64,000 bases of DNA from Neodothiora populina (taxonomy: Eukaryota): contig NW_027191405.1 in assembly GCF_041146345.1 (NCBI RefSeq), positions 1,736,001-1,800,000 of the forward strand, read 5' to 3'. Below the pieces are notes generated by a model. It was given only the letters and a program-made list of their open reading frames with translations, was not told the DNA's origin and made no database searches. Positions within the stretch are counted from its first letter, which is position 1, and every line of letters starts with the position of its first letter. This document shows, one piece after another, positions 41,248 through 56,874 of the stretch. The position numbers were made by a program, and so were the translations under genes.

Positions 41248-42272
41248 TCAAGGCAGCCCTCGACCGGAGTTAATGGCTTTGGCGACCTGTGGAGATTGTT
41301 AGCATCCGTGTGGGTTCAGCATTATTACACTTTGATTGTCCCACCTCGCTTGTGTTGGGTCGATTCTCTGATCGTGTCTTGTCAGCTTTGGTGTATGTAC
41401 GACGGAGAAACAACATATCGAGATCTCATGTCTCTGGGATCGGCCCTCACCTGCATATCTCTCGTAACTGTCCAGGTACAGCTCGTCTGTACTCGTTGTG
41501 GCAGCAACGGCGGGGTGTTTCTCTATTGACTCGACCCACTTGGCCCATCTGCTGCCCTCGGTAGGCTCTGGCCAGCCACGATAGGGCTTCAAGACCTTGG
41601 CCAAACGTATGACCCATGGTGCCATCTGAACGTCGACGAATGACATTCCTTCGCCCAAGAAAAAAGGCCCTGATTTGTCACTCGCGTCTACGAGTTTCGA
41701 GATCTGTGTCTTGAGCTCTTCTCCTTCTTCGACCTGAGACTTTTGATCCTGAGCCTGGAGGTAACGGTAGAAATTGGGAATGATGTGTCGATTTATGTGG
41801 TCTGACCACAGACGTGAATGTGCTCTCACTTTTGGGTCATTTGGGAGCAAAGCAGTTCCGGCGTGCAAGTCTTCCAGATACTCCATCAGAACAGTACTCT
41901 CATAGCATCCCCAGTCGCCATGGCGTAGAGCCGGCACAAGACCTCGAGGGTTCACGACGAGTAAAGACTTTGGCTTCGCATAAGGGTCGACCTCGATGTA
42001 CTGGTATGGCAAGCCTTTCAGCTCGAGAGAGATCCATACGCGTTGCACGAAGGGGCTTGAACAACATGTAAAGTCAGTAAGTCCAATCTCGCATGTCGGT
42101 ATTGTGCAGATGGCCCAAGACTGGTCAGCATGGACCAAACATACCAGAAACAACTACCGAACAGCTTGAGGTCATTCTCTTGTGCGTGGGCTTCGACAGT
42201 CTTCAGTGCATCACCTGTTGCCTTCTTGTGATAGGACTTTTTGTTAGGGTCGCCGTTCTGGTTGGCGTCCAT
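41248..42272 (-). CDS. Glutathione S-transferase, Cys-containing (omega-like); introns 42056-42144, 41368-41450, 41287-41344
   Basis: Spliced active site GSCFCPFVQRVW, NPRGLVPAL, YESTVLMEYLED, GPFFLG..SFVD. C-terminus ENRPNTSEVAKAINSGRGLP*. Confidence 0.92.
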
Positions 42273-43053
42273 GGCGTTGATAATGCAAGAAGAAAAATGG
42301 CTATCGTGAATGAAGTGGTCAAGGTGTATTCACGTATGCAAGTCCAGTATTTCTGGTATGATCCGGCGGTGCGCCGTGAGTTTGAATGCGGTGGGTTCAG
42401 TCGAGAGCAGATGTTTACGAATTCACCGTTTCGCGGTCTGGTTGATGCTCCAGGAGGAGAGCAGGCAGTTGAGTTGATGATTCGTGTGTTTTGAAATGCC
42501 ATACATCATAGTATGATGGTATCCTCGATGACGAAACAGGGTCAAGCAAGAGAAGCGATGCCCCGCAATCGGAATCACCTCATAGTACTTGCCGCAATGC
42601 AGTACGAGCTATTAAGTAAGATGCTGTGTGCTACTTGATACAGCGAGAAAAATTGATCGAAGGGAAAGGTGGAATTATCTTCATTCATCAAGGACAAACA
42701 AGGTCAATGCATCTACAGCAGAGATGGAGGAGCAGACAATTGCGTCTCGCTCATCAGAACTTCATCGACTGCTGGTAATGTAGCACTCCAGCTTTCTCCT
42801 CTCCGAACTTTTGAACAAACGTGTATCTCTCATCGTGTCCCGCCTGGCAAACAGGAGCGGGTGTCAGAGAAAAGCATCTGACACAAAATTCAAGCATCAA
42901 ATCATTGCAGTGGCCCCATTTTTATATTTCTCCGCCCTTCAACGCCGGATCCATTGATGCCGTAAAGTTTCTGTCTCCCGTCGCCTGGTGCTCAACAATG
43001 GAAAGGCGGACATGTCTCTATGGAAAAGCGAACGCCGCATCCCATGCTGTAAC

Positions 43054-44341
43054 TCACTCGTCTCCGGGCAAAAGGTTGGACCTGACGGCAAACATCTTGC
43101 TGCTCACGCTCGCGGTGAAGCCGTCAACCTGTCTGGAGTATTGCTCGACCTGTCTGCTGTTCAGCAGAGTCTCGAGTCTGTTTGGCTCCTGAGGAAGCTT
43201 GAAGAGCTTCTGCCATTCGTCCTCGGGGAGAAGGGGCTGCTTGGTGGCTGTGCGCTGGGCGTTCTCGGCCTTGCGCTTCTGCTGCCACTGAGTGATCTTG
43301 GCCTGCTCGCGCTGGAGCGAACGCTGGTAGTACTGGTAGTTGTTGAGCTCGGTGTGGTGGTTCTCAATGCTGTCGAGCAGAAGATCGCAAGTCTTTTCCA
43401 GGAAGGGATCGATGGAGAGATCCAGAGAGTCGAAGTTTGGCACGAGGGGCACGGAGTTCAGCTGAGGATCGACGTTGAGCGCTGCCAGACTGGGAGGGAA
43501 GCTCAGTTGTGCCTTTTTCGGGGGTGCGGTAGGCAGCTGGTGGAGGAATGAGGTGAGGAGGTGTGAGTTGTGGACGCGAACGGGAAGCTCGGTGAAGATG
43601 TCCTGGTGACGGAGACCGCTCTTTTGCAGACTGAAAACGGGGCTGTGTCAGCAAGAGACAGCAATAACCAAGTATGGAGCATTATATCATTACCTCTCGG
43701 TGGTGAACTTGCTCTCCTTGTAAGCGGCGATGAACTGAGGCGAGAGTCTGTAGGCTCTGAGGCTCAGGCTGCCTTGCGAACTGCGGCTGACATCGTGGAC
43801 GAGAGTGACTGTGCGCTCGTTCAACTCCTTCTGGTAGAAGTACTGGTTCTCGATGGTGTTCATGTTGATGAAGTTGCCCATGTTTGTGCTCAGGTACCAG
43901 CCGACGTTCTGCGCATCGACGTTGACTTCCCGTAGGAACTTGACCATCTCGTTCTGGTATGCGTGGTTGGCCTTGGATCGGGGAGCGGCGGCAGCGAGGT
44001 TCTGGTTGTCATGGTTGTTGTAGTTGTTGTCGCCTGAAGAGGTGTCGGCGGCGTGTGGGAAAGGGAAAGAGTTGGTGATTTGGAGTTGGCCGTTGATGTC
44101 CATGCCCACCAGGGCTCCGGTAGCGACAGTAGGGAAAGTCTGCGAGCTGTGCTTGATGATGCGCATCACCACCTGTTGGGATCGTGTCAGAATATCGGGT
44201 TTGGCTGTTCGCTGGGGGATGCGCGGCTGCATACCAGAGCGTCGACCTGGACCTCGCGCAGAGGCGTTTCCTTGCTACGGACATGTCAGCAGGCGTATCT
44301 TTCCGAGGGCTTTCGACAGAGACGTACATAGCATCGGCCAT
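43054..44341 (-). CDS. EIF3H: Translation initiation factor eIF3 subunit H (MPN domain), 3 introns
   Basis: [70 protein letters not shown]. Confidence 0.95.
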
Positions 44342-46379
44342 GATGTGGTTTGGATGTCGTGGGTGAAAAATGGCTGTGATGAAGGCTGTAACGTCGTCAA
44401 TCCGCTCTTCTCACTCTTCTCTCGCCCATAACCAGAATTTCTGCTGGAGGCCAAATCCAGAAGTGCGCTTAGAGCATTCGAGCCCTGAGATTCCGTGACG
44501 CCGGAGTTACCCCATACGGCAGATGATGGCTCTCAATCCCCTGCAAAACCCTTCCAGACTCCCTCATCCAGCAATTTCTCCCTTTTACTGTACAGTACCT
44601 CAAATCATCAACGTCCAGAAAGGCTCGCCCCATATTGATCCCCTCTTGATTCTGATTGTTCTACTGTATTTCTCACCATGACACGGGCTCAAGCGCGGTA
44701 CTGTATTCACAAGACTCGATCTAAACACTCTATTTGATTCCTAAATCCTGCCTCTAGTATGGTACTGCACTGTCACAACACGTGAGTATGAGTCTGTCAT
44801 GAAGAAGCGTGCACTATACGCGAGTGATGTTCACAGGATGCAGAGTACCGGAAGCTGCCTGTACTGGCCAATGAACCACTGTGACTCGGGGTGGGGTGCA
44901 TAGTCGTCCTGCGCAGTAAATGTAAGGTACTTATCCATTCTGTGACTGTACGGAGCCTACAACGGGAGACTCGGTGGGACCATTATCTTTGAGGCAGGAC
45001 AGGACAAGCATCCACAAGACTCGAAAACGCATGGACCAGATCCACTCTTTGATCACTAACTCCGTGTGTGCACATTGCTCGTCTCGCTGCCCGTCCGTTC
45101 AGCGTGCATCGTAATTCGACAGGGGACCTCCCTTTTTCTCTTGTCGTTTCATGACTGTTCGTGTTGCAGCCGTGTATTGCGTGAGAGACAATCCACATTT
45201 CGTGTACGCACTGCACATGCAGGTCCTTGTCGTCGCTCCCTAGGCAGAGAGCGAATACGGACAGATAGTCGTATAATACTACTGTATACCTTTTCTTTTT
45301 TTGGCCGACAGAATTCACAATCTCTGGAGTTGGGTCTCTGCGCCACAGAACCCCGCACCGCCACGGCCACACTTGCCGCGTATCGCCCTGTGCATGAGCT
45401 GTCGAGAGTGTCTCGGGGTGTCAGAGTCCCTTGTAAGTGCCCTGTAAGTGCCTTGTACAGGTACTTGTCCAGTGCCGCAGCAGTAAAGTGAGGTGGTAAG
45501 TCAAGGTACAAGTACTTGTAGGATGATGCTGTCGGACTTGATTGTACACGCGGTTTCCGCATTTTTACATCAATTTCACCTTACCGTACCTTGCTGCCTC
45601 GCCTTAGTCGTGCTGAAACACACTCGACACACTCTCAAAATTACGATACAGTTAATCCCATCATTCCATTATACCGCTATCGGGAAGAACATCAACGTCT
45701 TCACCACAGCACCAACGTCGAATCTTCCAGGGGTTCACAATCAAGGGCGAGATCCACTCTAGCGTTCCAGCCACAGCGGACTGCCGCAGGTACTGTACAT
45801 TCGACCAATTCGACCCTCCTCTCGTGTCACCACCACCCAACCGCACCCTCGAGACGACTTGACTCCAGTGGGCCGCAGTACTCGAGTGAAGCTTGTCTGT
45901 GTTCTCTCAATAACACACTTTCAATTTCCTCGTTGTCGTCCTGTCGAGTGGTATACACTCCTAATCCACCATCTCTTATCGCTCTGGCCGAGTCTGCAAC
46001 GCATCTAATCCACTTTCACCGTGGAACCTACCCCCGTTGAGATAGACATCTCCTCTCAACTCCACTCCTCCATACACAACCAGTTTGCAACCCAGCCATC
46101 TGCTAGTCACAATCGCCTGATCCGACGTTCACCTGTTGATCCGTCAAACATTAATCGTCGTCTTCGCACCTCTTGTCTCACCATCACCACCACCCCCCTA
46201 CGCACTCTTGACTCTTGCTGTGCTGCAATCAGCCCTCCACACTCCACCGTTTCAATTCCCCACCTTGCATGATGCGTGCCTTTGTTTGAATTGAATCCCT
46301 TGTCGCTGCTTGTATACATCTGGCTGCCGTCATCGTCACCGTCTTCGTCGTCGTCATTTCCCCTTTGCGGTAATCGGCG

Positions 46380-47777
46380 ATGGCATTACACCGTGGTATT
46401 CAATCCGCCATATTCTACTACCTGTCATGCGCACCTTGTACCGGTTACTCATATCGGAAGAAGAGACGGAAAGAGGCAATCCGCGACCGCGCACAGAAAC
46501 ACCAATTGGAGATGGAGGAACCTGGACTCTACCGTCACCCGAGCCCATTTGCAACGAACCCCAATTGGCAGACCGAGATAGATCTTGGTCCCAGTCCGCT
46601 TCCACCTCGTGGGAAGAAGACTTCACAGAAGAAGGGTCGCGTCAACACCGGAAATGAGAGCAACGTCACCAGCAGTACTAGTCTACCCCTGGCCAAGGGC
46701 GCGAGCAATGACAGTAACTACACACTACGGAAACACCAGAGGGAAGACGAGGAGCTATGGCGTACGAGTACATCTCGAACGAGTCCCTTGGGCGCTTCCG
46801 TCATGGACATTGGCCGCCCTCCCACCGCAAGGACCACGAGGACCGACAAGACCAGTACGAGCTACTACTCTGTGCAAAATGCCCCCATAAACGATTTACA
46901 TCCCGCTATTGTTACTCGCATTGACAACAGAGAAGACGCAATGTGGATGCTGCAGCCTCCGCCGAGCGCTCGAGTCATGAGTGGGAGAGAGAAGCCCGTC
47001 ACGCGCGTGGCCAGATCGAACAGCGGCTCCAGCAAAGTCAGCAGCAGGCGTCCGGATTCATCACCACTATCACGACAGATCTCTCACCGCATCATTGACG
47101 AGAAACTCAGAAGCCGCGAACTGTTACCAGCCATGGACATCGATGGCGAGCGTACACCTCGACCGGTCGACTCCGCTCTAAGTCCGGATACACCCACTAC
47201 AGAGAGGCTGTCATCAGACAGCACCATAACTTCACGGCGGAAGCGACGTCCGCCTCCTATCAGCGTGTCCGAGGACACTCAGAACTCTAACCGATCCTGT
47301 ACCGACCGTCACAAGACGCATTCACATTCAGCCGAAGCTCTTGACACGAATGGCCAATCAGATCCTCACTATTCCGAAGACCCGGCCGTCCGCAACACTC
47401 GGCATTTGACCGCCTCGTCCAAGCCATCAAGAGACAACGCACGTCAACGCCGTACTGTCGCAGTCAAGCCCGACGAGACCGCACGCTCCACCACTCGACC
47501 GACACTCGGCTCGAAAGACAGACAAGACAGCTCTCTCAATGTTCTACAAGAACTGGTTCCAGCATCCATGTTCAACATGCGCAACTCGACCAAGTCACCA
47601 AGCTTTGAAGCCAAGATAGAATTGCCCTCTCCAAACAGTGACGAGACAGAGCTCCTGGGCAGCGGAAAGGCGGCCTTTGAGAATTGGTTCGAGAGCCGAG
47701 ATATCGCTCTGTTCCCCGAGTGGGTCAGCGAAAGGACCAAGAGAGACGTGTCAGCGAGGTGGAGTGTCGACTTCTAG
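46380..47777 (+). CDS. Conserved fungal hypothetical protein, largely disordered
   Basis: 465-aa ORF with ordered blocks SAIFYYLSCAPC, YRHPSPFATNPNW..EI.LGP, PINDLHPAIV, WMLQPPPSARVMSG and terminal RWSVDF. Confidence 0.8.
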   Translation: MALHRGIQSAIFYYLSCAPCTGYSYRKKRRKEAIRDRAQKHQLEMEEPGLYRHPSPFATNPNWQTEIDLGPSPLPPRGKKTSQKKGRVNTGNESNVTSSTSLPLAKGASNDSNYTLRKHQREDEELWRTSTSRTSPLGASVMDIGRPPTARTTRTDKTSTSYYSVQNAPINDLHPAIVTRIDNREDAMWMLQPPPSARVMSGREKPVTRVARSNSGSSKVSSRRPDSSPLSRQISHRIIDEKLRSRELLPAMDIDGERTPRPVDSALSPDTPTTERLSSDSTITSRRKRRPPPISVSEDTQNSNRSCTDRHKTHSHSAEALDTNGQSDPHYSEDPAVRNTRHLTASSKPSRDNARQRRTVAVKPDETARSTTRPTLGSKDRQDSSLNVLQELVPASMFNMRNSTKSPSFEAKIELPSPNSDETELLGSGKAAFENWFESRDIALFPEWVSERTKRDVSARWSVDF

Positions 47778-48584
47778 CTCGGTCTCTCGCCACACCATTC
47801 TGTATCCTTGACTTATTTATTGGCATAGACACATTTCGACATTGTACGGCGTTGGTGGGGTAAGCGACGTGAACATTTCTCTTTCTCATTGTTGTTCCCG
47901 CGAGGTACCAGGAACCGTTCATCACCTGCATACGTACTCTAGCAAGCACATGGGTGCAGGCACACACATGGCAGAAAATAGGCGTTTAGTTCATCTTCCT
48001 TGCGCGCGGGATTTTCCTTTTCGAAGTTGGATTGTACGGTGCGTGGGAAGGGTGTTATTTTTTTTGCTTTTGCCCCGTCATTGGGGAAAGACCCTGTGTC
48101 TGCACTGCCTCTGCATATCATGTGTGTTGAAGGGTTTTTTTGTTTTTCGTCTTTAGAAAGCGCAGCGGCATTGGATTCGTGGAGCGGAGCGCACACGCAT
48201 AGCAGCACACGGAGGTACCATATATTGGCAGCCTCTTACCCCCTCGTTGTTATCTTGCTTCTCCGTCTGTCTCTCTCACTTCAACATGCACACACACATA
48301 TACATATCAGCGTCGCGGTCGTCTTTAGTCTTGTACTCGGACTTTTGTTTGGCCAGCAGCCAATCAGGAGAGAAAAGAAAAGAGAGTCGTCTCGCTACCA
48401 CTACCTTCCTACTCTCGTTTGCAATCACACCTTCCAAGTCCAATTCGTACATGTCCTTATGCATAGAAGATACGCGACGAACTCACAGCAGCCAATCCGG
48501 TCTTCGTCGCGAATATGATATCAAAATCCTCGAACGTCTGTCTAGTCAATAGACAACATCTACAATCCAAAGAACCAAAGAACA

Positions 48585-50805
48585 TCACCGCTCTCCAGCC
48601 AACTGACAAACCCTATTCGCAGCCTCCTCAAACCCATCAAACGCCTCAAGCGCCAACCCACTCTGCGCAATCTTCTCCTGCCCGACCCTCTCATTCGTGC
48701 CTCGAAGCCTAACAACAACCGGCACGCCCCGCATATCGACCTCCTTGAACGCTAACATGACGCCGTCGGCGATCATGCCGCAATCCGTCAGTCCGCCGAA
48801 GATGTTGACGAATATGACTTTCACGCGCTCGTCGCGCAGGATCAGCTCGAAGGAGGTCTTGACTGTCTGCGAGGTCGCTTTGCCGCCTGTGTCGAGGAAG
48901 TTTGCGCAGAGGCCGTTGTGCGGCGGCAGGGAGAGGCTGTCGACTGTGTTCATCGCGAGGCCGGCGCCGTTGACTAGCGTGCCGATGGCGGCGGCTGGGT
49001 CGCCTGTGTGCAGTTTTATGAAGACAATGCCTGAGGACTCGGCTTCGGTTTCGACGGCGACTTCGAGGCCGGCGTCGCGGAGGGTGTGGATTAGCTTTTG
49101 GCGGCCGGCCGACTTGTAGGCTGCGGAGTCGAAGTGCACAAGCGGGGAGGAGATGGCTAGGGAGCCGGTCGGGGAGATGGAGAGGGTCACGGTCAGGGAT
49201 ATGGCTTCTTTGGAGGTGTGCAGCTTCGCTAGCGAGTCGATCAGTTTCGCTGTTTGCGCGTGGGCGAGTGGCGGCGCGGCGTCGAGTTGGAGGTGGCGGA
49301 TGGCTTGTTCGATGACGGTTTGGTCGGGTCCTTGGAAGTAGTTGTATGGTAGCTTTTTGATGCGGCGCGAGAGGGATGCTGGGGAAGTGCTCGGTGAGAC
49401 GACGATGCAGGGGCTTCGCTCTGTTCGGTCTATACTTATGCCCAGGTAGTGCGTGTCTACTCCTTCGGGTGCCTCTGCTGTGATGGCCATGTCCTTGATG
49501 AATTCGGAAAGCAAGTCTACTGCTTGTTGTCCTGCAACGTGCAAGGTACGACGCTGTCGGCTGACGGGTACAGTGACAGGGCTTCTGTTTCTCAAAAGCT
49601 GTGGTCTGCTCATGTAATGCATTCCTCGTCGTTGATTGGCCGTGGCGGATTGCCGCTGCAAAGTGTGAGTTTAGAATAACGATATATATATGTCTTGATG
49701 CTCACGATCTTGCCCACGTCCTCTCCTGCCTTGCTGAGCAGCCCCTTCATGACATTGCCGAACTTTTCGGGGTGAGAGACCATGGTCACACCGGCGTCTT
49801 GCAGAGCCTTGTACTTCTGATCCGCGGTGGCTTCACCAGGAGCTGCCCATGCACCCGCGTGGCCCATGACCTGTCCCGCAGGTGCCCGTCTGCCACCAAC
49901 AAGTGCTGCAATGGGTCTTTTCACATCCTCAGTGTTAGCAGACGTGACTTGTACCCAAAAAACTCTCAAGAAAGCGATACTGACTTTGGATTCGTGGTTC
50001 TACGGTGATAGTCTCTGATCCACTCCGCCGCGTCTTCCTCGGCGCGGCCCCCGACTTCTCCCACAAGCACGATTCCTTCAGTCTCCGGATCAGACTCGAA
50101 CACGCGCAGAGCGTCGATGAAGTTGGTGCCCGCCACGACGTCTCCGCCCATGCCGATGCAGAGGCTCTGGCCCAGCCCGGCGCGCGTGATCGAGGCAACC
50201 GTCTCGTAGCTCAGGGTGCCGGACTTGGCGACGATGCCGATGTGACCTGCGGAAAAGGTTGGGAGAGGTTGGAAGCCGATCCTGCAGTTTCCGATGGGAG
50301 AGATGATGCCGGGGGCATTGGCGCCGACGAGTCGACTTTTGGACTGGGTCTGTAGAACAGACATGATCCGCAGCATGTCGTGGAGGGGAATGTGCTCTGC
50401 AACAGCAACGATCAGGGGGATCTCCGCTTCAATGGCGTCTTCGATCGCCTTTGCGGCATGTTGAGCAGCGACGAAGATGGCCGTGGCATCTGGTCGCAAT
50501 TGCGTTTTGGCTTGCTCAACGGAGGGCAACACGGGCAGACCTAGATGTTCGCCAGCCCTTCCAGGAGTGACGCCACCAACGATGTTCGTGCCATAAGCCA
50601 AAGATTCTTGAGCATTACTTGTAGCGACTCGTCCGGTGAAGCCTTGGTAAATGACTCGCGTATGCTTTCCGATTTTTAGATTCGTTATGGTATCATCGTA
50701 GGACTTGCTAGCCAGAGGTTTTGTGGTCGCGAACGCCCTGACGGAGTGCTTTCCGGCCGGAAACAGTAAGCGAGGAGTCCTCGCGAGAGCGTTGGATGGG
50801 AACAT
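48585..50805 (-). CDS. Succinyl-CoA synthetase-like alpha-beta fusion protein, about 700 aa (exons 50805-49985, 49916-49706, 49655-48585)
   Basis: Alpha motifs QGFTG, VGGVTPG, SGTLSYE, GEVGG, MGHAGA; beta motifs NGAGLAM, NFLDTGG, NIFGG, PVVVRLRGTN. Both introns (49917-49984 and 49656-49705) keep frame. Arg/Ser-rich N-terminal presequence. Confidence 0.85.
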
Positions 50806-52315
50806 ATCAGGAGGGGTAGATAGAGTGTAGTTGTACAGTGCTCTTCTTACAATCACAAGATACAGTACTTGGACAAATGACCAAGTCTTACCAGACCCTT
50901 GATCCCACTCTCTACTCCGTCCTCGGGATATCCATTTACCTTGATCAGAATGAAAAGGACAAGTAGGGTTATGGCTACCATTCGTGATATCTCTCACTTA
51001 CTTTTGGAGTACAAGTGCTGTACCTTACCTACCCTAGGTACCTAAGGTACTCTGGAGAATGCGGAGGTGAGTCGGAGATGGGGAAGAGCGTCATCACTTC
51101 GAGACTAAGCCGAGGTCGGCTTCTGGTCAGGCCTTCTTGGTCCAGGAGCAGCGACAGGACATCCCAAGTCTCGATGGATGGCTCTGCTTGTGAATGGCTC
51201 GTACAGTACGTCTGAATCGTAGCCATTGACGATGGAGCTAAGGGACCACAATCGATGCATTTTCAGAATAACCCATCGATCCTCGTCGAGGAACCAGCTA
51301 CATGAAGCAGGGCTCGCAGGCGGTCACGAGCGGATGGCGTGCACAAGAAAGGCACATCCACTCATACTTTGTACAGTAATAATAGCACTGTATGGAGACA
51401 CGCAGTGATTTAGCTGTACAGTAGCTGCAGTGGAGTAAACTTGCACCATGAACCCCACATGTGGAAATTGATACTATGGGGGTGTCTGCCTCTTTCCCTG
51501 TCGTTTTCTGCGGCGGTGCTCATCGTATAAGAAATATATTATTGTTATTATTATTGTCGCCAGTTATCCATCGGCGATATTGCCCAGATGGTTAGTGGTT
51601 TCACGAATAAGGCTGGCGTGGGTTCTAATCGTGGAGAGTCATTGCTCGTGAGTATTCGCGTCGGGACACGCATCTCTCTCCATTTCTTGTGGAGCCCCAA
51701 ACAGCCGCAGTTCGTATCCGCTGTCGATGTCATTCTCGTTGTCATGGCGTCCTGATCAGACCGGGGCCCTGTCCTTTCTTTGGCAACCACGAGGTAGATT
51801 TTAGATGCAGAGTAGTAATTCACAGAACGAGGTACAGTAGTAGCTCTTACGCAGTCAACTCAGCCATCTGACGTTCTACGAAAGATCTCGCGTGGCTTGA
51901 GTAAGGAAATTGTGAGATTCATATTTGGTCAGGAAATCGTAAGCTCTTGCTCTTCTTCCCGAGTCTGGACGTATATACCTTACATATACAACAACCAAGG
52001 TATTGTAAGAGGATCATCGTCATCATCTGTGCAGAAACATAAAAGCATCCATCTATACGCAGTCTCTACCTACTCAATCTGCCTCTGAACAAAAGAACAG
52101 AGCTGCTGCTATTCCGGTCAGAGAACATCCTTCCTCAACCTTTGCCCGTCAGACCATCTCGTACTGTAATCCGCGCGCACATCACGCCCAGAGCGAAACT
52201 GCATTTGATTGCCGATCGTCAGAGCTGCATCACGCCGCCAGCAGAGAAATCGCTCTTGCAGTGCCCTACCTTAGCTATCTCGAAATCAACCCCCCCACCT
52301 CTCCTCGGCCCAACC

Positions 52316-52909
52316 ATGTCGCAAACAAGACCGAAAATGGACAAAGCGACCGAGCTCGCAGAGACGATCAAGACCCTGTCCATCAACACAGATCCACCAA
52401 AGGCCGTGTCGGCGTCGGCGAAAAAGGCTCGCGAGGAGGAAGAACGAGCAGGAGCAGAAGTGTCACTGGCGGATTCATGGGAAGAAGAGGCCGGGGCCGA
52501 CGAGGCTGACCTTGTGTCTACTTCTACAGCTAACGGGGGCTCTGCGGCCATAGCCGTCCCCAAAGCCTCAGATGTGCCTTTCGCTCCGCCTCCGACGCCC
52601 TCGTCGCCTACTGTCTACCAAGAGCGCGAGCGCTTCCCTTCTTCTCTTTCAAATGTACCGAATCGACCGAAGAGGAGCGACTCGCCCTCGGATGACTCTG
52701 GCAAGAGACCGGAAAAGTCGACTGCGGTAGCGAACAGACTGATAGCGGGAGCATTGGGTGTCAGAGCCCCGAAGAGAACAGAAGAACAGCGCAAATACGA
52801 TCGTGCCATCAAGGAGCAAGAGATCAGGAGGAAAAACAAGGAAAAGGAGGATCAAAAGCGCAGGGAAGAAGAGGCCGCAAAGGCAAAGGCGGCCATCTGG
52901 GAAGACTGA
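52316..52909 (+). CDS. Small conserved protein with R3HCC1-like C-terminal motif
   Basis: ADSWEEE and RPEKSTAVANRLIAGALGVR, then a charged helix ending AAIWED. ATG at 52316 in good context (CAACCATG). Confidence 0.75.
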   Translation: MSQTRPKMDKATELAETIKTLSINTDPPKAVSASAKKAREEEERAGAEVSLADSWEEEAGADEADLVSTSTANGGSAAIAVPKASDVPFAPPPTPSSPTVYQERERFPSSLSNVPNRPKRSDSPSDDSGKRPEKSTAVANRLIAGALGVRAPKRTEEQRKYDRAIKEQEIRRKNKEKEDQKRREEEAAKAKAAIWED

Positions 52910-53314
52910 TCGTGAGGCAATTCAGTAGGACACTGCGTTTATCAAACACTGAACAGGAGCAGAGGGCGGCATGTGACTGTCATATCAAAACACGTTTCCA
53001 TAAAAAGTAGGCAATTCCGCGCCCTCTACTCGATGGCCACCATCTCTTTCGGACTACACGTCTGGCGCAAGGGTCTTTTCTTTCCACACGCAAGGCGACC
53101 ACAAGAAATGGAAAGCCGAGAAGCCGTTATTCAACGCCCGTGTTTCCCTTCACGCCATCGCAAACTTTCAGGTAGGGAAATATATCGTCAGGGAGAGTGA
53201 TTCACGCTGTTCAGAAGCTGTAAAGCTAGAGAGACAGGTCCATCTCGCCCTGTTGTTCATGAGGGTTCATCTAAGAGTGCTTCTGCTATGCCTTTTGCGC
53301 ACGTGACCGAGCGC

Positions 53315-53684
53315 TCAGCCACCGATCTGTTCCTGATGGACCTCGAGGGTATCGCCGTCTTGCATATCGAGCTGTTTGGGCGCATGTTCGGTCAGCTTTT
53401 GTCCGCCGTGCTGTGCTGTGCCAATGTATCTCGTGACAAATATCGGCTCCACTCACCGAATCGGGGTTGTCGGTCGGGTTCACTCGCTGACCGTCGAACA
53501 AGAATCGCACGCTGGCGGGAGTCTTGCCCTGGCGCTCACAAAAAGCATCCATAAGCTTCTTGAGCTGTGTCGTACGCTTGATCTTGAAGAAGACCTCGTT
53601 GTTGTTGTCCGTCACTTTGATGTTGAGGTGCTCGCTTGGCGCTTGCTCCTCGGGCTTGTTCGAAGGACTACCGCTGTCGGACAT
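53315..53684 (-). CDS. SMT3: SUMO (94 aa; intron 53372-53456)
   Basis: EHLNIKVTDNNNEVFFKIKRTTQLKKLMDAFCERQG..VRFLFDG..|LDMQDGDTLEVHQEQIGG*. Confidence 0.97.
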
Positions 53685-54295
53685 GTTGACTGCTGCTGCC
53701 GAATGAGCTTTGATTGGGGACTGTCGAAGATGTTGTGAGTGCTTTGCGCGGCGAACGATGATCGATGCTCCGAACTACGTACGTCAGGCTATTTGGATGT
53801 AATGTAAGTGAAGATCGGAGCTGACACCGGGGACGTGGGCCAACCTTTTATACGTCAGTTTGTGGTCAGGATGATGGATGAATGGATCTCCGATCACAGG
53901 TGTCGGCGCAAACGCTGGAGCGGACTCACGATTTATGGAGAAAACAACAGCAAGATGAATACAGAGCGCAATCTCTCCCGCTTTTGAGAAAGTAAGTGTT
54001 TTGTAGTGGGGGAAAGGTGTGCAGGAGTGAAGTTGAAGTTGATGTGGTGTTGTGGCGCGGGGTCTGGATGGGAATTGTTTGTCTTCGTCACGAATCGGAT
54101 GTAATCGTTCACACGCTTCCACATAGCCTGCGCCAACTTTGCTGCTATTACTACCTCTGCCACGACCAATTGCATTTCACTATCGTTTCATCATCATCAC
54201 CTCAGAATCAAGCGTGCAAAGTTGCCTTCTCACGCCTTCCCCTGCACTCATTGCGTTCTTGACTTCTTTACTGAATACACGCATCGCAAGCAAAC

Positions 54296-55281: not shown

Positions 55282-56874
55282 ATGTCTCCAAATCGTAAAA
55301 TCATAATTGATACCGACCCAGTATGCTTGCATTTCTCGTAGTTGTTTGCTCGGATCATACCAACCAACATGTGTCACACAGGGAGTGGATGATGTCCTGG
55401 CCTTGCTCCTTGCATTCTCCGCCTCTCCAGAAGAGTTGGAGGTTTTACTCATATCTCTGACCTTTGGCAACATTGATGTTGAGAACTGTCTGCGCAACAC
55501 TGTGACTCTGCTCTATCATGTGGAAAGGGAGATTGCGTGGCGAAGAGAGCAAGGGAAGGATTCTGGATTCGATGCTTTACTTGCTCATAAACCTATCGTA
55601 GCCGTGGGCGCCCACGAACCACTAGCAGACCAGCGCATGATGGCAGATTACTTCCGTTGGTGATGTGATACTTTTCTGATCAGTTCCCTTGCTGACGTAT
55701 AGATCTAGATGGCATCGATGGACTCGGCGGTATTCACAATACTGTATGTATGACGGCCTATTGCAGATTGTACGGTACTTACGATTGCTAGCATCCACAT
55801 CTCACCCCTGCACAGACGTGGAAAAGCCTGTTCAACATCTCCCAGAACTCTGAGCTGAAGGAACATAGCTTAGAAAACGAGGTTCAGGATCATCCCGGTC
55901 GTCTTTTCCAGCCATCAAATGTGCCTGCTCACGAAGAGATCCTGAGGCTTCTCCGTGAGAATGAGAAGGACACCATCACGATCGTGGCGGTTGGCCCACT
56001 TACAAACATTGCTCTTGCAGCTGCCAAGGATCCCGAAACATTCCTCCGCGTGAAGGAAGTCATTGTAATGGGTAGCACCCTTGGCGAGGTTGGAAATGTA
56101 AGTGCGGCCACATCTATCACCTTGCACTCAGTCCATCTATCTCACGGTGCCTTTGGAATCCGTACGAAGAGCATTCACTAATGGTCGCCACAACACGCAC
56201 AGATCACACCTGTGGCGGAGTTCAATACCTATGCTGATAGTTTCGCCGCCGCGAGAGTCTATGCACTCACTTCGCCGCGGCCCAACTCCACTATACCCCC
56301 ACCGCCTCCTGAACCATCTGGCGGACAGAAATCACTCACACAGCCTTCTTACCTAGCGCCATATCCCGACAAGCTTTCCAGGCAGCTAAACTTGACGATC
56401 TTTCCCTTGGACATCACGCACTTGCATGTTATCAGAAGAGGTCAATTTCAGGCAACCATCGCTCCGCTGCTCGATGCTGGCTCGCCACTTGCGGAGTGGG
56501 CTTCGGCTTTCCTGAGCTCGACTTTTGCGAAAGTAGAATCGTTGCAGGAAGGCGTCTCAGGTGACGCGGTTGGGCTTGAGCTTCATGATCCTCTATGTAT
56601 ATGGTACGCGCTGTCGCAAGGTGGTACGGGGTGGACTGTGTCGAAGGACGAGGATATCAGAATCGAGACGACTGGCCAATGGACAAGAGGCATGTGTGTT
56701 GTTGACAAGCGCAATCGCAGACGTCGTCCCGCGGATGATGTAGAAGGTGAGATACCGAGTGACACAGGCAACTGGCTCAGTGTCAACTCTGGCAATAGGG
56801 TAGGCAGATGCGTGGCTTCTCCAGGCCCGGCGCTCTTTGCGCCTTTTTTGCTCGAAAGAGTGTTCAGGGTGTAG
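55282..56874 (+). CDS. Inosine/uridine-preferring nucleoside hydrolase family (introns 55321-381, 55656-708, 55744-791, 56098-202)
   Basis: IIIDTDP|GVDD Ca-binding motif, TFGN, HGIDGLG, VGPLTNIA, GN|ITPVAEFN, PLDITH, LHDPL, TRGMCVVD. Confidence 0.93.

What the first reader, a model, noticed from the sequence alone, without database searches (positions are those of the whole stretch)
48585..50805. SCS alpha and beta encoded as one polyprotein whose linker is a retained mitochondrial presequence (candidate MPP-cleaved tandem protein)
Seen: two frame-preserving introns (49917-49984 and 49656-49705) fuse an alpha-type and a beta-type succinyl-CoA-synthetase domain into about 700 aa. The ~39-aa linker (49655-49539), RQSATANQRRGMHYMSRPQLLRNRSPVTVPVSRQRRTLH, has no acidic residues, is Arg/Ser/Thr-rich and carries two R-2/R-3-type motifs (RRG|MH and RRT|LH). 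Established: canonical mitochondrial SCS beta precursors end their presequence in a very similar ..RRxL(S/H).. just before the mature N-terminus, and MPP splits tandem precursors internally (yeast Arg5,6; S. pombe Rsm22-Cox11). Inference: this gene is imported through its N-terminal signal and cut into separate alpha and beta chains at fixed 1:1 stoichiometry. I know of no description of this for an SCS-like enzyme.
Basis: partly seen in the sequence, partly recalled or inferred. Interest (0 to 1): 0.85.

Follow-up and report, generated by a model that had tools for sequence, protein, structure and literature searches.

The report
Fused SCS-like gene, presequence-like linker
A fungal gene joins an alpha-type and a cut-down beta-type succinyl-CoA-synthetase module through a short, conserved stretch that looks like an internal mitochondrial cleavage signal, so it may be a new two-in-one mitochondrial precursor, but cutting has not been shown.

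Summary
The three exons (50805-49985, 49916-49706, 49655-48585, minus strand) splice to a 700-aa protein. It is identical to the annotated Neodothiora populina protein AAFC00_005596.

The fusion does not rest on the predicted splice. In 45 of 80 related metagenome loci one stop-free ORF crosses the junction, and 4 loci hold the whole gene without introns.

Residues 345-381 lie between the structural end of the alpha module (about 343) and residue 381/382, which superposes on residue 1 of solved beta subunits. This segment is modelled with low confidence, nearly acid-free, and the most positively charged part of the protein.

It carries two copies of Q-[RK]-R-x-hydrophobic-[H/Y]. R354, the hydrophobic residue 356 and L382 are invariant in 78 orthologues, R380 is kept in 77 of 78, and all four positions are kept in 42 metagenome ORFs. 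The rest of the linker drifts. The R-x-Y form matches the proven internal MPP site (RSY) of yeast Arg5,6.

Internal MPP cleavage is therefore the best reading (about 0.55), but nothing here shows it.

One correction: this is not a standard SCS. The beta half lacks roughly 85-100 residues of the ATP-grasp domain. It is an uncharacterised Ascomycota-wide paralogue. My searches found no paper on it.

The parts
48585..50805 (-). Whole gene: three exons (50805-49985, 49916-49706, 49655-48585 including the stop) coding for a 700-aa precursor
   Evidence: Identical to NCBI protein AAFC00_005596.
50731..50805 (-). N-terminal presequence-like leader, residues 1-25, ending R23-A-F25 | A26
   Evidence: This leader is acid-free in 70 of 78 orthologues. 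A strict R-x-[FYLM]-[STAC] is found in 47 of 78. AF2 pLDDT is below 50 for residues 1-21 and 25-31. Solved alpha chains begin to align at residue 34/35.
49709..50706 (-). Alpha-type module, residues about 34-343 (spans intron 1), with the catalytic-type His293 at 49859-49861
   Evidence: Pfam CoA_binding and Ligase_CoA. VIA-align Z 37, rmsd 1.6, 46-48% identity to pig and human SCS alpha, model 35-340/343 against chain 2-306/309. G292-H293-x-G295-A296 is invariant in 78 orthologues.
49917..49984 (-). Intron 1 (68 nt, phase 2, within codon K274)
   Evidence: GT...AG with a CTAAC branch site. Many metagenome loci show a break at residue 274.
49656..49705 (-). Intron 2 (50 nt, phase 0) at the alpha/linker boundary, after I344
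   Evidence: GTGAGC...TGCAG. Fifteen of 80 related loci show an intron-like break at or near this position; in six it falls at residue 344/345. In 45 of 80 the junction is read through without interruption.
49545..49655 (-). Linker, residues 345-381: low model confidence, basic, acid-free
   Evidence: pLDDT is below 50 for residues 353-380. Across 78 orthologues the length is 28-46 aa, D+E is 2.1% against 10.4% for the whole protein, and K+R is 20.8% against 11.0%. It is the highest net-charge window in the protein.
49614..49634 (-). Motif 1, residues 352-358 (QRRGMHY here; consensus Q-[RK]-R-[GS]-[YFM]-H-T). Candidate R-2 site, with the cut predicted between G355 and M356.
   Evidence: In 78 orthologues: Q352 76/78, R354 78/78, Y/F/M356 78/78, H357 77/78, T358 75/78. 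In 42 metagenome ORFs: R354 42/42 and a hydrophobic residue at 356 in 42/42.
49536..49556 (-). Motif 2, residues 378-384 (QRRTLHV here; consensus Q-[RKQ]-R-x-L-[HY]-[LIV]). Candidate R-2 site, with the cut predicted between T381 and L382.
   Evidence: In 78 orthologues: R380 77/78 and L382 78/78. In 42 metagenome ORFs: R380 42/42 and a hydrophobic residue at 382 in 42/42. Residues 381/382 superpose on residue 1 of the E. coli, pig and Francisella beta chains.
48588..49544 (-). Beta-type module, residues 382-700: a shortened ATP-grasp remnant (about 382-520) and a complete Ligase_CoA domain (about 571-688)
   Evidence: Pfam finds Ligase_CoA only. ATP-grasp_2 matches only below threshold, at profile positions 107/108-196 of 202, in two orthologues. 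PDB profile search: positions 45-49 align to chain residues 99-134. VIA-align: Z 25-26 against beta chains. Model residues 38-175 align to residues 1-233 of an isolated ATP-grasp domain, with 132 aligned.

Best explanation
The locus encodes one 74-kDa mitochondrial precursor of an Ascomycota-wide paralogue of succinyl-CoA synthetase. An alpha-type module with the phosphohistidine loop comes first. A beta-type module with a shortened ATP-grasp domain follows.

The 36-residue segment between them has no counterpart in either mature subunit. It has the composition of a presequence and carries two copies of an R-2-type cleavage motif (R-x | hydrophobic).

Most likely sequence of events:
1. The precursor is imported through its N-terminal presequence.
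2. MPP removes that leader.
3. MPP also cuts at one or both internal motifs.
4. This gives an alpha chain of about 34.5 kDa and a beta-type chain of about 34 kDa, in equal amounts, which stay together as an SCS-like heterodimer. A basic 26-residue spacer is released if both sites are used.

Shown here: the fused gene, the module boundaries, the low-confidence basic linker, and the conserved motifs.

Inferred: mitochondrial import, cleavage, the identity of the protease, and the origin of the linker as a former beta presequence.

Because one jaw of the ATP-grasp is missing, the enzyme probably does not use ATP or GTP the way SCS does. Its reaction is unknown.
For: **1. The fusion is real.**
- The spliced model equals the NCBI protein.
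- Fused homologues of 640-760 aa make up 115 of the 120 best 'longer' hits.
- In 45 of 80 related DNA loci one stop-free ORF crosses the junction. Four loci hold whole-gene ORFs.
- The Atlas holds fused clusters of 335 and 105 members, mostly Ascomycota.

**2. The linker lies between the canonical module ends.**
- Alpha chains align to model 35-340/343.
- Beta chains start at model 381/382.
- Only residues 1-31 and 353-380 have pLDDT below 50 in a model with mean pLDDT 87.6 and pTM 0.86.

**3. The linker has presequence-like composition.**
- D+E is 2.1% against 10.4% for the whole protein. K+R is 20.8% against 11.0%.
- It is the highest mean net charge along the protein, above the N-terminal leader.

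**4. Two conserved islands sit in an otherwise variable linker.**
- The linker varies in length (28-46 aa), with column entropy above 3 bits between the motifs.
- R354 78/78, Y/F/M356 78/78, R380 77/78, L382 78/78.
- All four positions are kept in 42 of 42 metagenome ORFs.
- Versions of both motifs are also seen in Nemania, Coniella and Mycena members, although Coniella has A in place of H at position 357.

**5. There is a proven precedent.**
- In yeast Arg5,6 the internal MPP site is an R-2 motif, RSY. A second motif, RGY, lies nearby (PMC8734313, passages).
- Here motif 1 is R-[G/S]-Y in most species.

**6. The predicted cut gives a canonical N-terminus.**
- An R-2 cut at motif 2 would start the new chain at L382, the structural equivalent of residue 1 of solved beta subunits.
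Against: - No experiment or prediction program was available. There is no RNA run, no TargetP or MitoFates, and no proteomics.
- Other members of the superfamily work as uncut fusions: ATP-citrate lyase chains, bacterial beta-alpha fusions such as P0288, and a Trichosporon reverse-order fusion with an acidic linker. The enzyme therefore does not need cleavage.
- The internal motifs are conserved more strictly than MPP specificity is known to require: Q at -4, H at +2, T at +3.
- They are also conserved more strictly than the family's own N-terminal site, where a strict R-x-[FYLM]-[STAC] is found in only 47 of 78. This could point to another or an additional constraint.
- Two deeper representatives (P0247, P0252) lack the motifs while still fused, if their gene models are right.
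Confidence: 0.55

Rival explanations
1. The protein is a single-chain enzyme that is never cut. The linker is a flexible tether. Its conserved basic motifs serve another purpose, for example as an internal MTS-like signal that helps import through Tom70, as a regulatory or binding motif, or as a loop that folds into the space left by the missing ATP-grasp half.
For: - Fused SCS-superfamily enzymes work without cleavage: ATP-citrate lyase and bacterial beta-alpha fusions.
- The Trichosporon reverse-order fusion has a linker with several acidic residues and no such motif.
- Q352, H357 and T358 are conserved at 96-99%. That is more than a degenerate protease site needs, and stricter than the N-terminal site of the same family (47 of 78).
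- Internal MTS-like stretches that bind Tom70 are described (PMC5881500, abstract seen in the listing).
Against: - The motif occurs twice in the same form, R-x-hydrophobic. The second copy ends exactly at the residue equivalent to the mature beta N-terminus.
- The composition and low model confidence of the linker fit a cleavable presequence.
- AF2 with 78 sequences gives no packed conformation for residues 353-380.
Confidence: 0.33
2. The protein is cut, but not by MPP, or only at one of the two motifs. Another matrix protease could make the cut, or the ends could be trimmed afterwards by Icp55 or Oct1, so the mature ends differ from those predicted.
For: - The residue after each predicted cut is Y, F, M or L. 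According to the passages read in PMC8734313, Icp55 removes such a residue, and this was predicted for Arg5.
- In Arg5,6 only one of two neighbouring R-2 motifs was needed.
Against: Nothing here separates this reading from the main explanation. It refines the main explanation and does not contradict it.
Confidence: 0.08
3. Alpha and beta-type halves are made as separate proteins in this species. Intron 2 is retained or an internal start is used. The alpha frame then stops 31 codons into the intron, and the beta half starts at Met356 with its own N-terminal presequence.
For: - An unspliced intron 2 gives a 375-aa alpha protein.
- In 6 of the 78 aligned orthologues, including this one, the residue at position 356 is Met, which could serve as a start. 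The five whose source names I can match (P0001, P0002, P0003, P0004, P0007) are Neodothiora, an unclassified Dothideomycete and Aureobasidium.
Against: - The residues just upstream of Met356 (Q-R-R-G) are conserved in frame.
- In 45 of 80 loci the junction is a plain ORF without an intron.
- Most species have Y, F or L rather than M at position 356.
- At best this would be a side product in a few lineages.
Confidence: 0.04

Closest known systems
Yeast Arg5,6 and Neurospora arg-6 (composite mitochondrial precursors cut internally by MPP); also Atp25, S. pombe Rsm22-Cox11 and Etp1
   Same: - One ORF with an N-terminal presequence and two modules.
- A junction that is presequence-like and carries an R-2 motif with an aromatic residue after the cut. 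In Arg5,6 this is RSY, with RGY nearby (PMC8734313, passages).
- The two products are expected to form a complex, as Arg5 and Arg6 do.
   Different: - Cleavage is proven for those proteins and unproven here.
- Here the two modules are the two subunit types of one enzyme.
- The junction carries two near-identical motif copies about 26 residues apart.
- 'Succinyl' occurs 0 times in the main text of that paper, so the family is not on its list of composite precursors.
Canonical succinyl-CoA synthetase (alpha and beta from separate genes; E. coli SucCD, pig and human SUCLG1 with SUCLG2 or SUCLA2)
   Same: - The alpha module is 46-48% identical and superposes at rmsd 1.6 (Z 37).
- The phosphohistidine loop GHAGA, the GE-x-GG motif and the CoA-binding glycines are invariant in 78 orthologues.
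- The C-terminal domain of beta keeps NGAGLAM and NIFGG.
   Different: - The two halves are fused in the order alpha then beta.
- The ATP-grasp domain is reduced from about 233 to about 138 residues, and Pfam ATP-grasp_2 is not detected above threshold.
- The positions aligned to the E-I-N-P and M-D-A-K stretches of human SUCLA2 are not conserved. Their role in catalysis and Mg binding is recalled by me, not tested.
Single-chain fusions in the SCS superfamily: ATP-citrate lyase, bacterial beta-alpha fused SCS (e.g. Halodesulfovibrio P0288, 702 aa) and the Trichosporon asahii 672-aa protein P0388
   Same: Alpha-type and beta-type modules lie in one polypeptide.
   Different: - Those have the order beta then alpha.
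- P0388 has an acidic linker that is not presequence-like.
- ATP-citrate lyase keeps a full ATP-grasp domain (recalled by me, not checked in any call). I did not run P0288 through Pfam.

Membership tests
Succinyl-CoA synthetase (ADP/GDP-forming, alpha-beta) | Alpha subunit with a CoA-binding Rossmann domain, a CoA-ligase domain and the phosphohistidine loop | tested here: met
   Pfam CoA_binding 2.6e-19 and Ligase_CoA 2.4e-17. Z 37, rmsd 1.6, 46-48% identity to solved alpha chains. G292, H293, G295 and A296 are invariant in 78 orthologues.
Succinyl-CoA synthetase (ADP/GDP-forming, alpha-beta) | C-terminal CoA-ligase domain of the beta subunit | tested here: met
   Pfam Ligase_CoA 1e-20. PDB profile E 7e-64 to SUCLA2. 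NGAGLAM and NIFGG are invariant.
Succinyl-CoA synthetase (ADP/GDP-forming, alpha-beta) | Complete ATP-grasp nucleotide-binding domain in the beta subunit | tested here: not met
   No ATP-grasp_2 hit above threshold. Below threshold, only profile positions 107/108-196 of 202 match. About 85 chain residues have no counterpart. Only 132 residues align to a 233-residue ATP-grasp domain.
Succinyl-CoA synthetase (ADP/GDP-forming, alpha-beta) | Catalyses nucleotide-dependent interconversion of succinate and succinyl-CoA | not testable with these tools
   Needs an enzyme assay.
MPP-processed composite mitochondrial precursors (Arg5,6 type) | N-terminal matrix-targeting presequence | tested here: inconclusive
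   The leader is basic and acid-free in 70 of 78 orthologues. It has low AF2 confidence and lies upstream of the first residue that aligns to mature alpha. A strict R-x-[FYLM]-[STAC] is found in only 47 of 78. No targeting predictor was available.
MPP-processed composite mitochondrial precursors (Arg5,6 type) | Two separate functional modules in one ORF | tested here: met
MPP-processed composite mitochondrial precursors (Arg5,6 type) | Presequence-like segment with an R-2 motif at the junction | tested here: met
   Composition, charge profile and low model confidence. R-x-hydrophobic at 354-356 is kept in 78 of 78 aligned orthologues. At 380-382, R380 is kept in 77 of 78 and L382 in 78 of 78. 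Both triplets are kept in 42 of 42 metagenome ORFs. These are proxies only. iMTS-L profiling and MitoFates were not run.
MPP-processed composite mitochondrial precursors (Arg5,6 type) | Demonstrated cleavage into two polypeptides by MPP | not testable with these tools
   Needs import and cleavage assays or proteomics.

The most novel reading that the evidence does not exclude
The gene makes a self-splitting precursor. Two conserved MPP sites release a fixed 1:1 pair of chains and a conserved basic spacer peptide of about 26 residues.

The resulting enzyme keeps the CoA, carboxylate and phosphohistidine site of SCS but has lost the nucleotide site. It would then work without ATP or GTP. It could be, for example, a phosphate-dependent acyl-CoA hydrolase, or a CoA-transferase acting through an acyl-phosphate and a phosphohistidine. 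Such an activity has not been described for this fold in fungal mitochondria.
Probability: 0.12. Interest if true: 0.8.

Novelty: new variant of a known kind. Interest (0 to 1): 0.6.

Why it matters
Only a handful of mitochondrial proteins are known to be made as two-in-one precursors and split inside the organelle by the presequence peptidase. The list in PMC8734313 holds Arg5,6, Atp25, Etp1, Rsm22-Cox11, SPAC22A12.08c and rice RPS14.

This family would add a widespread case. The Atlas clusters hold 335 and 105 members, mostly Ascomycota. The two products would be the two subunits of one enzyme, and the cleavage signals are unusually sharp and duplicated. That makes it a clean system for studying how MPP recognises internal sites.

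Independently of cleavage, the family is an uncharacterised, strongly conserved SCS paralogue that has lost half of its ATP-grasp domain while keeping the phosphohistidine site intact. This raises a concrete biochemical question about what it does. It is currently annotated in genomes as 'succinyl-CoA ligase subunit alpha', which is misleading for metabolic reconstruction.

Tried and rejected
- **RNA evidence.** No RNA holder was listed for window 48400-51000.
- **Own genome.** None is held for this window. I could not look for the canonical SCS alpha and beta genes of this species.
- **Canonical fungal beta precursors.** I wanted these to compare their presequence ends with the linker, but could not retrieve them.
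  - The 'near' search returned only exon-sized fragments of this same family.
  - The representative search listed only family members and alpha chains in its best 150.
- **Unfused beta-type relatives in Basidiomycota.** A search with the Trichosporon beta half under 'shorter' lengths gave only fragments.
- **Sequence alignment of motif 2 to the N-terminus of human SUCLA2.** HMMER placed the profile's 'kRslhl...' on 'SMNLSLHEY...', but with a score of -3.8, which is not significant. I rely on the structural superposition instead.
- **VIA-align on the full 700-aa model.** The list filled with alpha chains, so I folded the beta half alone.
- **Earlier findings of this scan.** Nothing was found by sequence.
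- **Literature.** Seven searches were answered, and I judged the results from the listings only.
  - Searches returned no paper at all. Their terms were SCS or SCS ligase with MPP and polyprotein or internal cleavage, and six accession or locus names of orthologues.
  - None of the titles and abstracts listed by the other four searches dealt with this fused family or its processing.
  - Supplementary tables, where proteomics hits would sit, are not covered by that search, and I opened none.
- **Neighbouring genes.** They give no functional hint. They are eIF3h, a GST, a SUMO-like protein and a nucleoside hydrolase.
- **Complex prediction.** Not used. Two halves of an SCS-like pair would pass by likeness to solved structures, and MPP was not available as a partner.
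Full report
**What is in the sequence**

On the minus strand an ATG at 50805 opens a frame that is interrupted twice. The first interruption is 49984-49917 (68 nt, GTCAGT...AAAG, with a CTAAC branch site). The second is 49705-49656 (50 nt, GTGAGC...TGCAG). The frame ends at the stop codon 48587-48585.

Joining the three exons gives 2103 nt, or 700 aa.

The spliced protein is identical to a database entry, 'hypothetical protein AAFC00_005596 [Neodothiora populina]' (P0001). The window is therefore from a dothideomycete fungus, and the gene model is the one already annotated.

**The fusion is real and old**

A search for longer relatives of the exon-3 product returned 761 proteins at E <= 0.001. 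Of the 120 best listed, 115 are 640-760 aa. The other five are four of 620-639 aa and one of 1548 aa. Nearly all carry CoA_binding and two Ligase_CoA-type Pfam hits. They come from Dothideomycetes and Eurotiomycetes such as Penicillium, Histoplasma, Emmonsia and Thermoascus.

A search of 50%-identity representatives added Sordariomycetes (Nemania, Coniella, Pyricularia) and one basidiomycete entry, Mycena chlorophos. The ESM Atlas holds fused clusters of 335 and 105 members, mostly Ascomycota.

These are predicted proteins, so I also looked at raw DNA. A metagenome scan gave 80 related loci.
- In 45 of the 80, a single stop-free ORF aligns in one piece from residue 325 or earlier to residue 400 or later of P0001.
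- In four of those (L075, L076, L078, L079), the whole gene is one ORF of 703-710 aa.
- In 15 of the 80 there is an intron-like break at or near the junction. In six of them the break falls at residue 344/345, as in the window.
- Ten loci do not reach the junction, and ten are unclear.

The two halves therefore share one reading frame whether or not there is a splice. No RNA run could be listed for this species.

**Where the modules end and begin**

An AlphaFold2 model of the whole protein, built on 78 orthologues, is confident (mean pLDDT 87.6, pTM 0.86). Its only long low-confidence stretches are 1-21, 25-31 and 353-380.

Solved SCS alpha chains superpose on residues 35 to 340-343, covering chain residues 2 to 306-309 (Z about 37, rmsd 1.6, 46-48% identity). 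The alpha module therefore ends within a residue or two of the exon 2/3 boundary.

I folded the beta half alone (pLDDT 87.1; its first 33 residues are below 50). Solved beta chains from E. coli, pig, Francisella and Campylobacter superpose from their residue 1 onto residue 37/38 of that model. That is residue 381/382 of the full protein (Z 25-26, about 301 residues aligned).

Residues 345-380 thus have no counterpart in either mature subunit. They lie exactly where a beta-subunit presequence would lie.

**The linker**

Figures below come from the 78 full-length orthologues of alignment A1.
- The segment 345-381 is 28-46 residues long (median 36).
- D+E is 2.1%, against 10.4% for whole proteins.
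- K+R is 20.8%, against 11.0%.
- It is the most positively charged 25-residue window of the protein on average, about +5. The N-terminal leader reaches about +4.

Most linker columns are highly variable, with entropy above 3 bits and many gaps. Two islands stand out:
- Motif 1: Q352 (76/78), R354 (78/78), Y/F/M356 (78/78), H357 (77/78), T358 (75/78).
- Motif 2: Q378 (70/78), R380 (77/78), L382 (78/78), then mostly H and L/I/V.

In 42 distinct uninterrupted ORFs from the metagenome loci, R354, a hydrophobic residue at 356, R380 and a hydrophobic residue at 382 are each present in 42 of 42. Recognisable versions of both motifs also occur in the Nemania, Coniella and Mycena proteins, although Coniella has A in place of H at position 357. 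Two other deep representatives (P0247, P0252) lack them.

Both islands have the form Q-basic-R-x-hydrophobic. That is an arginine two residues before a bulky residue.

**Comparison with what is known about MPP**

I read passages of Friedl et al. 2020 (PMC8734313). They show that yeast Arg5,6 is cut by MPP at an internal presequence-like stretch. [quoted passage not shown] It is RSY at 523-525. A second motif, RGY at 549-551, was not needed. Icp55 trimming of the new end was predicted.

Their list of composite precursors is Arg5,6, Atp25, Etp1, Rsm22-Cox11, SPAC22A12.08c and rice RPS14. 'Succinyl' occurs 0 times in the main text.

Motif 1 here is R-[G/S]-Y in most species, the same form. By the R-2 rule the cuts would fall after G355 and after T381. 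The second cut would start the beta-type chain at L382, the structural equivalent of residue 1 of solved beta subunits.

Expected products are 34.5 kDa (26-355), 33.9 kDa (382-700) and a 26-residue spacer of pI 12. The uncut mature protein would be 71.6 kDa.

**Why I stop at about 0.55**

Nothing here shows import or cleavage, and no targeting or cleavage predictor could be run.

Fused enzymes of this superfamily work uncut. ATP-citrate lyase appears among the structural matches. Bacterial beta-alpha fusions exist, such as P0288 from Halodesulfovibrio. A distant Trichosporon relative (P0388) has the reverse order, with a linker that contains several acidic residues and no such motif.

The internal motifs are also conserved more tightly than a degenerate protease site needs. 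They are tighter than the family's own N-terminal site, where a strict R-x-[FYLM]-[STAC] occurs in only 47 of 78, although F-S-S/T-S is common. This may mean internal sites need stronger signals. It may equally mean the motifs do something else.

**It is not a standard SCS**

Pfam finds no ATP-grasp_2 domain in the beta half. At a loose threshold, two orthologues match only profile positions 107/108-196 of 202.

A family profile aligns to PDB beta chains only from chain residue 99-134 onward, leaving about 85 residues without a counterpart. Only 132 residues align to the 233-residue isolated ATP-grasp domain of Blastocystis SCS.

In the alignments to human SUCLA2, the stretches E-I-N-P and M-D-A-K face non-conserved residues; here they face T-V-T-L and S-S-P-L. 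That these canonical residues bind Mg-nucleotide or act in catalysis is my recollection of the E. coli SCS literature and was not tested here.

By contrast, several features are invariant in 78 orthologues: the phosphohistidine loop, the GE-x-GG motif, the CoA-binding glycines, and the NGAGLAM and NIFGG motifs of the beta C-terminal domain.

The likely picture is an enzyme that keeps the CoA, carboxylate and phosphohistidine site but has lost the usual nucleotide site. Its reaction is unknown.

**Origin of the linker**

The position of the linker fits a retained beta presequence, but I could not test this directly.
- No canonical fungal beta precursor could be retrieved.
- No genome is held for this window.
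- A search for unfused beta-type relatives in Basidiomycota gave only fragments.
- An alpha-only relative exists in Ustilago (P0310, 352 aa, named 'related to succinyl-CoA ligase alpha-chain, mitochondrial precursor'). I could not tell whether it belongs to this subfamily.

**Literature**

Seven searches were answered. They combined SCS terms with polyprotein, MPP, internal cleavage and fusion, or used six accession and locus names of orthologues. I judged the results from the listings only.
- Searches returned no paper at all.
- None of the titles and abstracts listed by the other four searches dealt with this family or its processing.

The search covers main texts of open-access papers only. 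I opened no supplementary tables, where proteomics hits would sit.

**Verdict**

The enzyme is an SCS-like paralogue with a shortened ATP-grasp domain, not SCS itself.

Noticed in passing
P0092; P0134 and P0136; L006: In some relatives the junction intron is in frame and free of stops. Intronless gene calls therefore read it through as 15-17 extra residues at the same position after K-I or K-T. In P0092 the insert starts with V and ends with Q, consistent with GT and AG splice sites. In those species both spliced and unspliced mRNA would give a fused protein.
   Followed up: partly
P0388, Trichosporon asahii, 672 aa: A distant relative has the reverse order: a beta-type half with a short N-terminal region, then alpha (44% identical to the alpha half here). 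They are joined by a linker with several acidic residues. The alpha CoA-binding glycine motif is altered. This suggests the pair was fused more than once, or rearranged.
   Followed up: partly
P0242, Mycena chlorophos, 737 aa: A basidiomycete entry is 54% identical to the ascomycete protein over its whole length and keeps both linker motifs. This could be gene transfer, contamination or patchy retention.
   Followed up: no
P0288, P0292, P0296, P0304, P0308, P0349 and others: Proteins of about 670-720 aa in which the alpha part lies at the C-terminal end. P0288 is from the bacterium Halodesulfovibrio and is named both alpha and beta by its sources. These are bacterial-type beta-alpha fused SCS.
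   Followed up: no
window 49620-49622 (Met356): In 6 of the 78 aligned orthologues, including this one, the hydrophobic residue after the first arginine motif is Met. The five I can name are Neodothiora, an unclassified Dothideomycete and Aureobasidium. The stretch from that Met to motif 2 reads like a complete short presequence. It could mark the old start codon of a once separate beta-type gene, or allow an internal start.
   Followed up: no
window 41302-44271, 53289-53771, 56185-56871: Neighbouring ORFs match a glutathione S-transferase (41302-42150, minus), eIF3h (43057-44271, minus, two exons), a SUMO/Rad60-like ubiquitin-fold protein (53289-53771, minus) and an inosine-uridine nucleoside hydrolase (56185-56871, plus). 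ORFs at 46377-47774 and 52046-52906 have no Pfam match. There is no sign of a metabolic gene cluster around the SCS-like gene.
   Followed up: partly
P0139; P0246: A few relatives have a very short spacer. In these the two motifs almost abut or the second arginine is missing (e.g. ...R-G-I-H-T-M-T-S-L-H-L...). Motif 1 therefore seems the more constant of the two.
   Followed up: no
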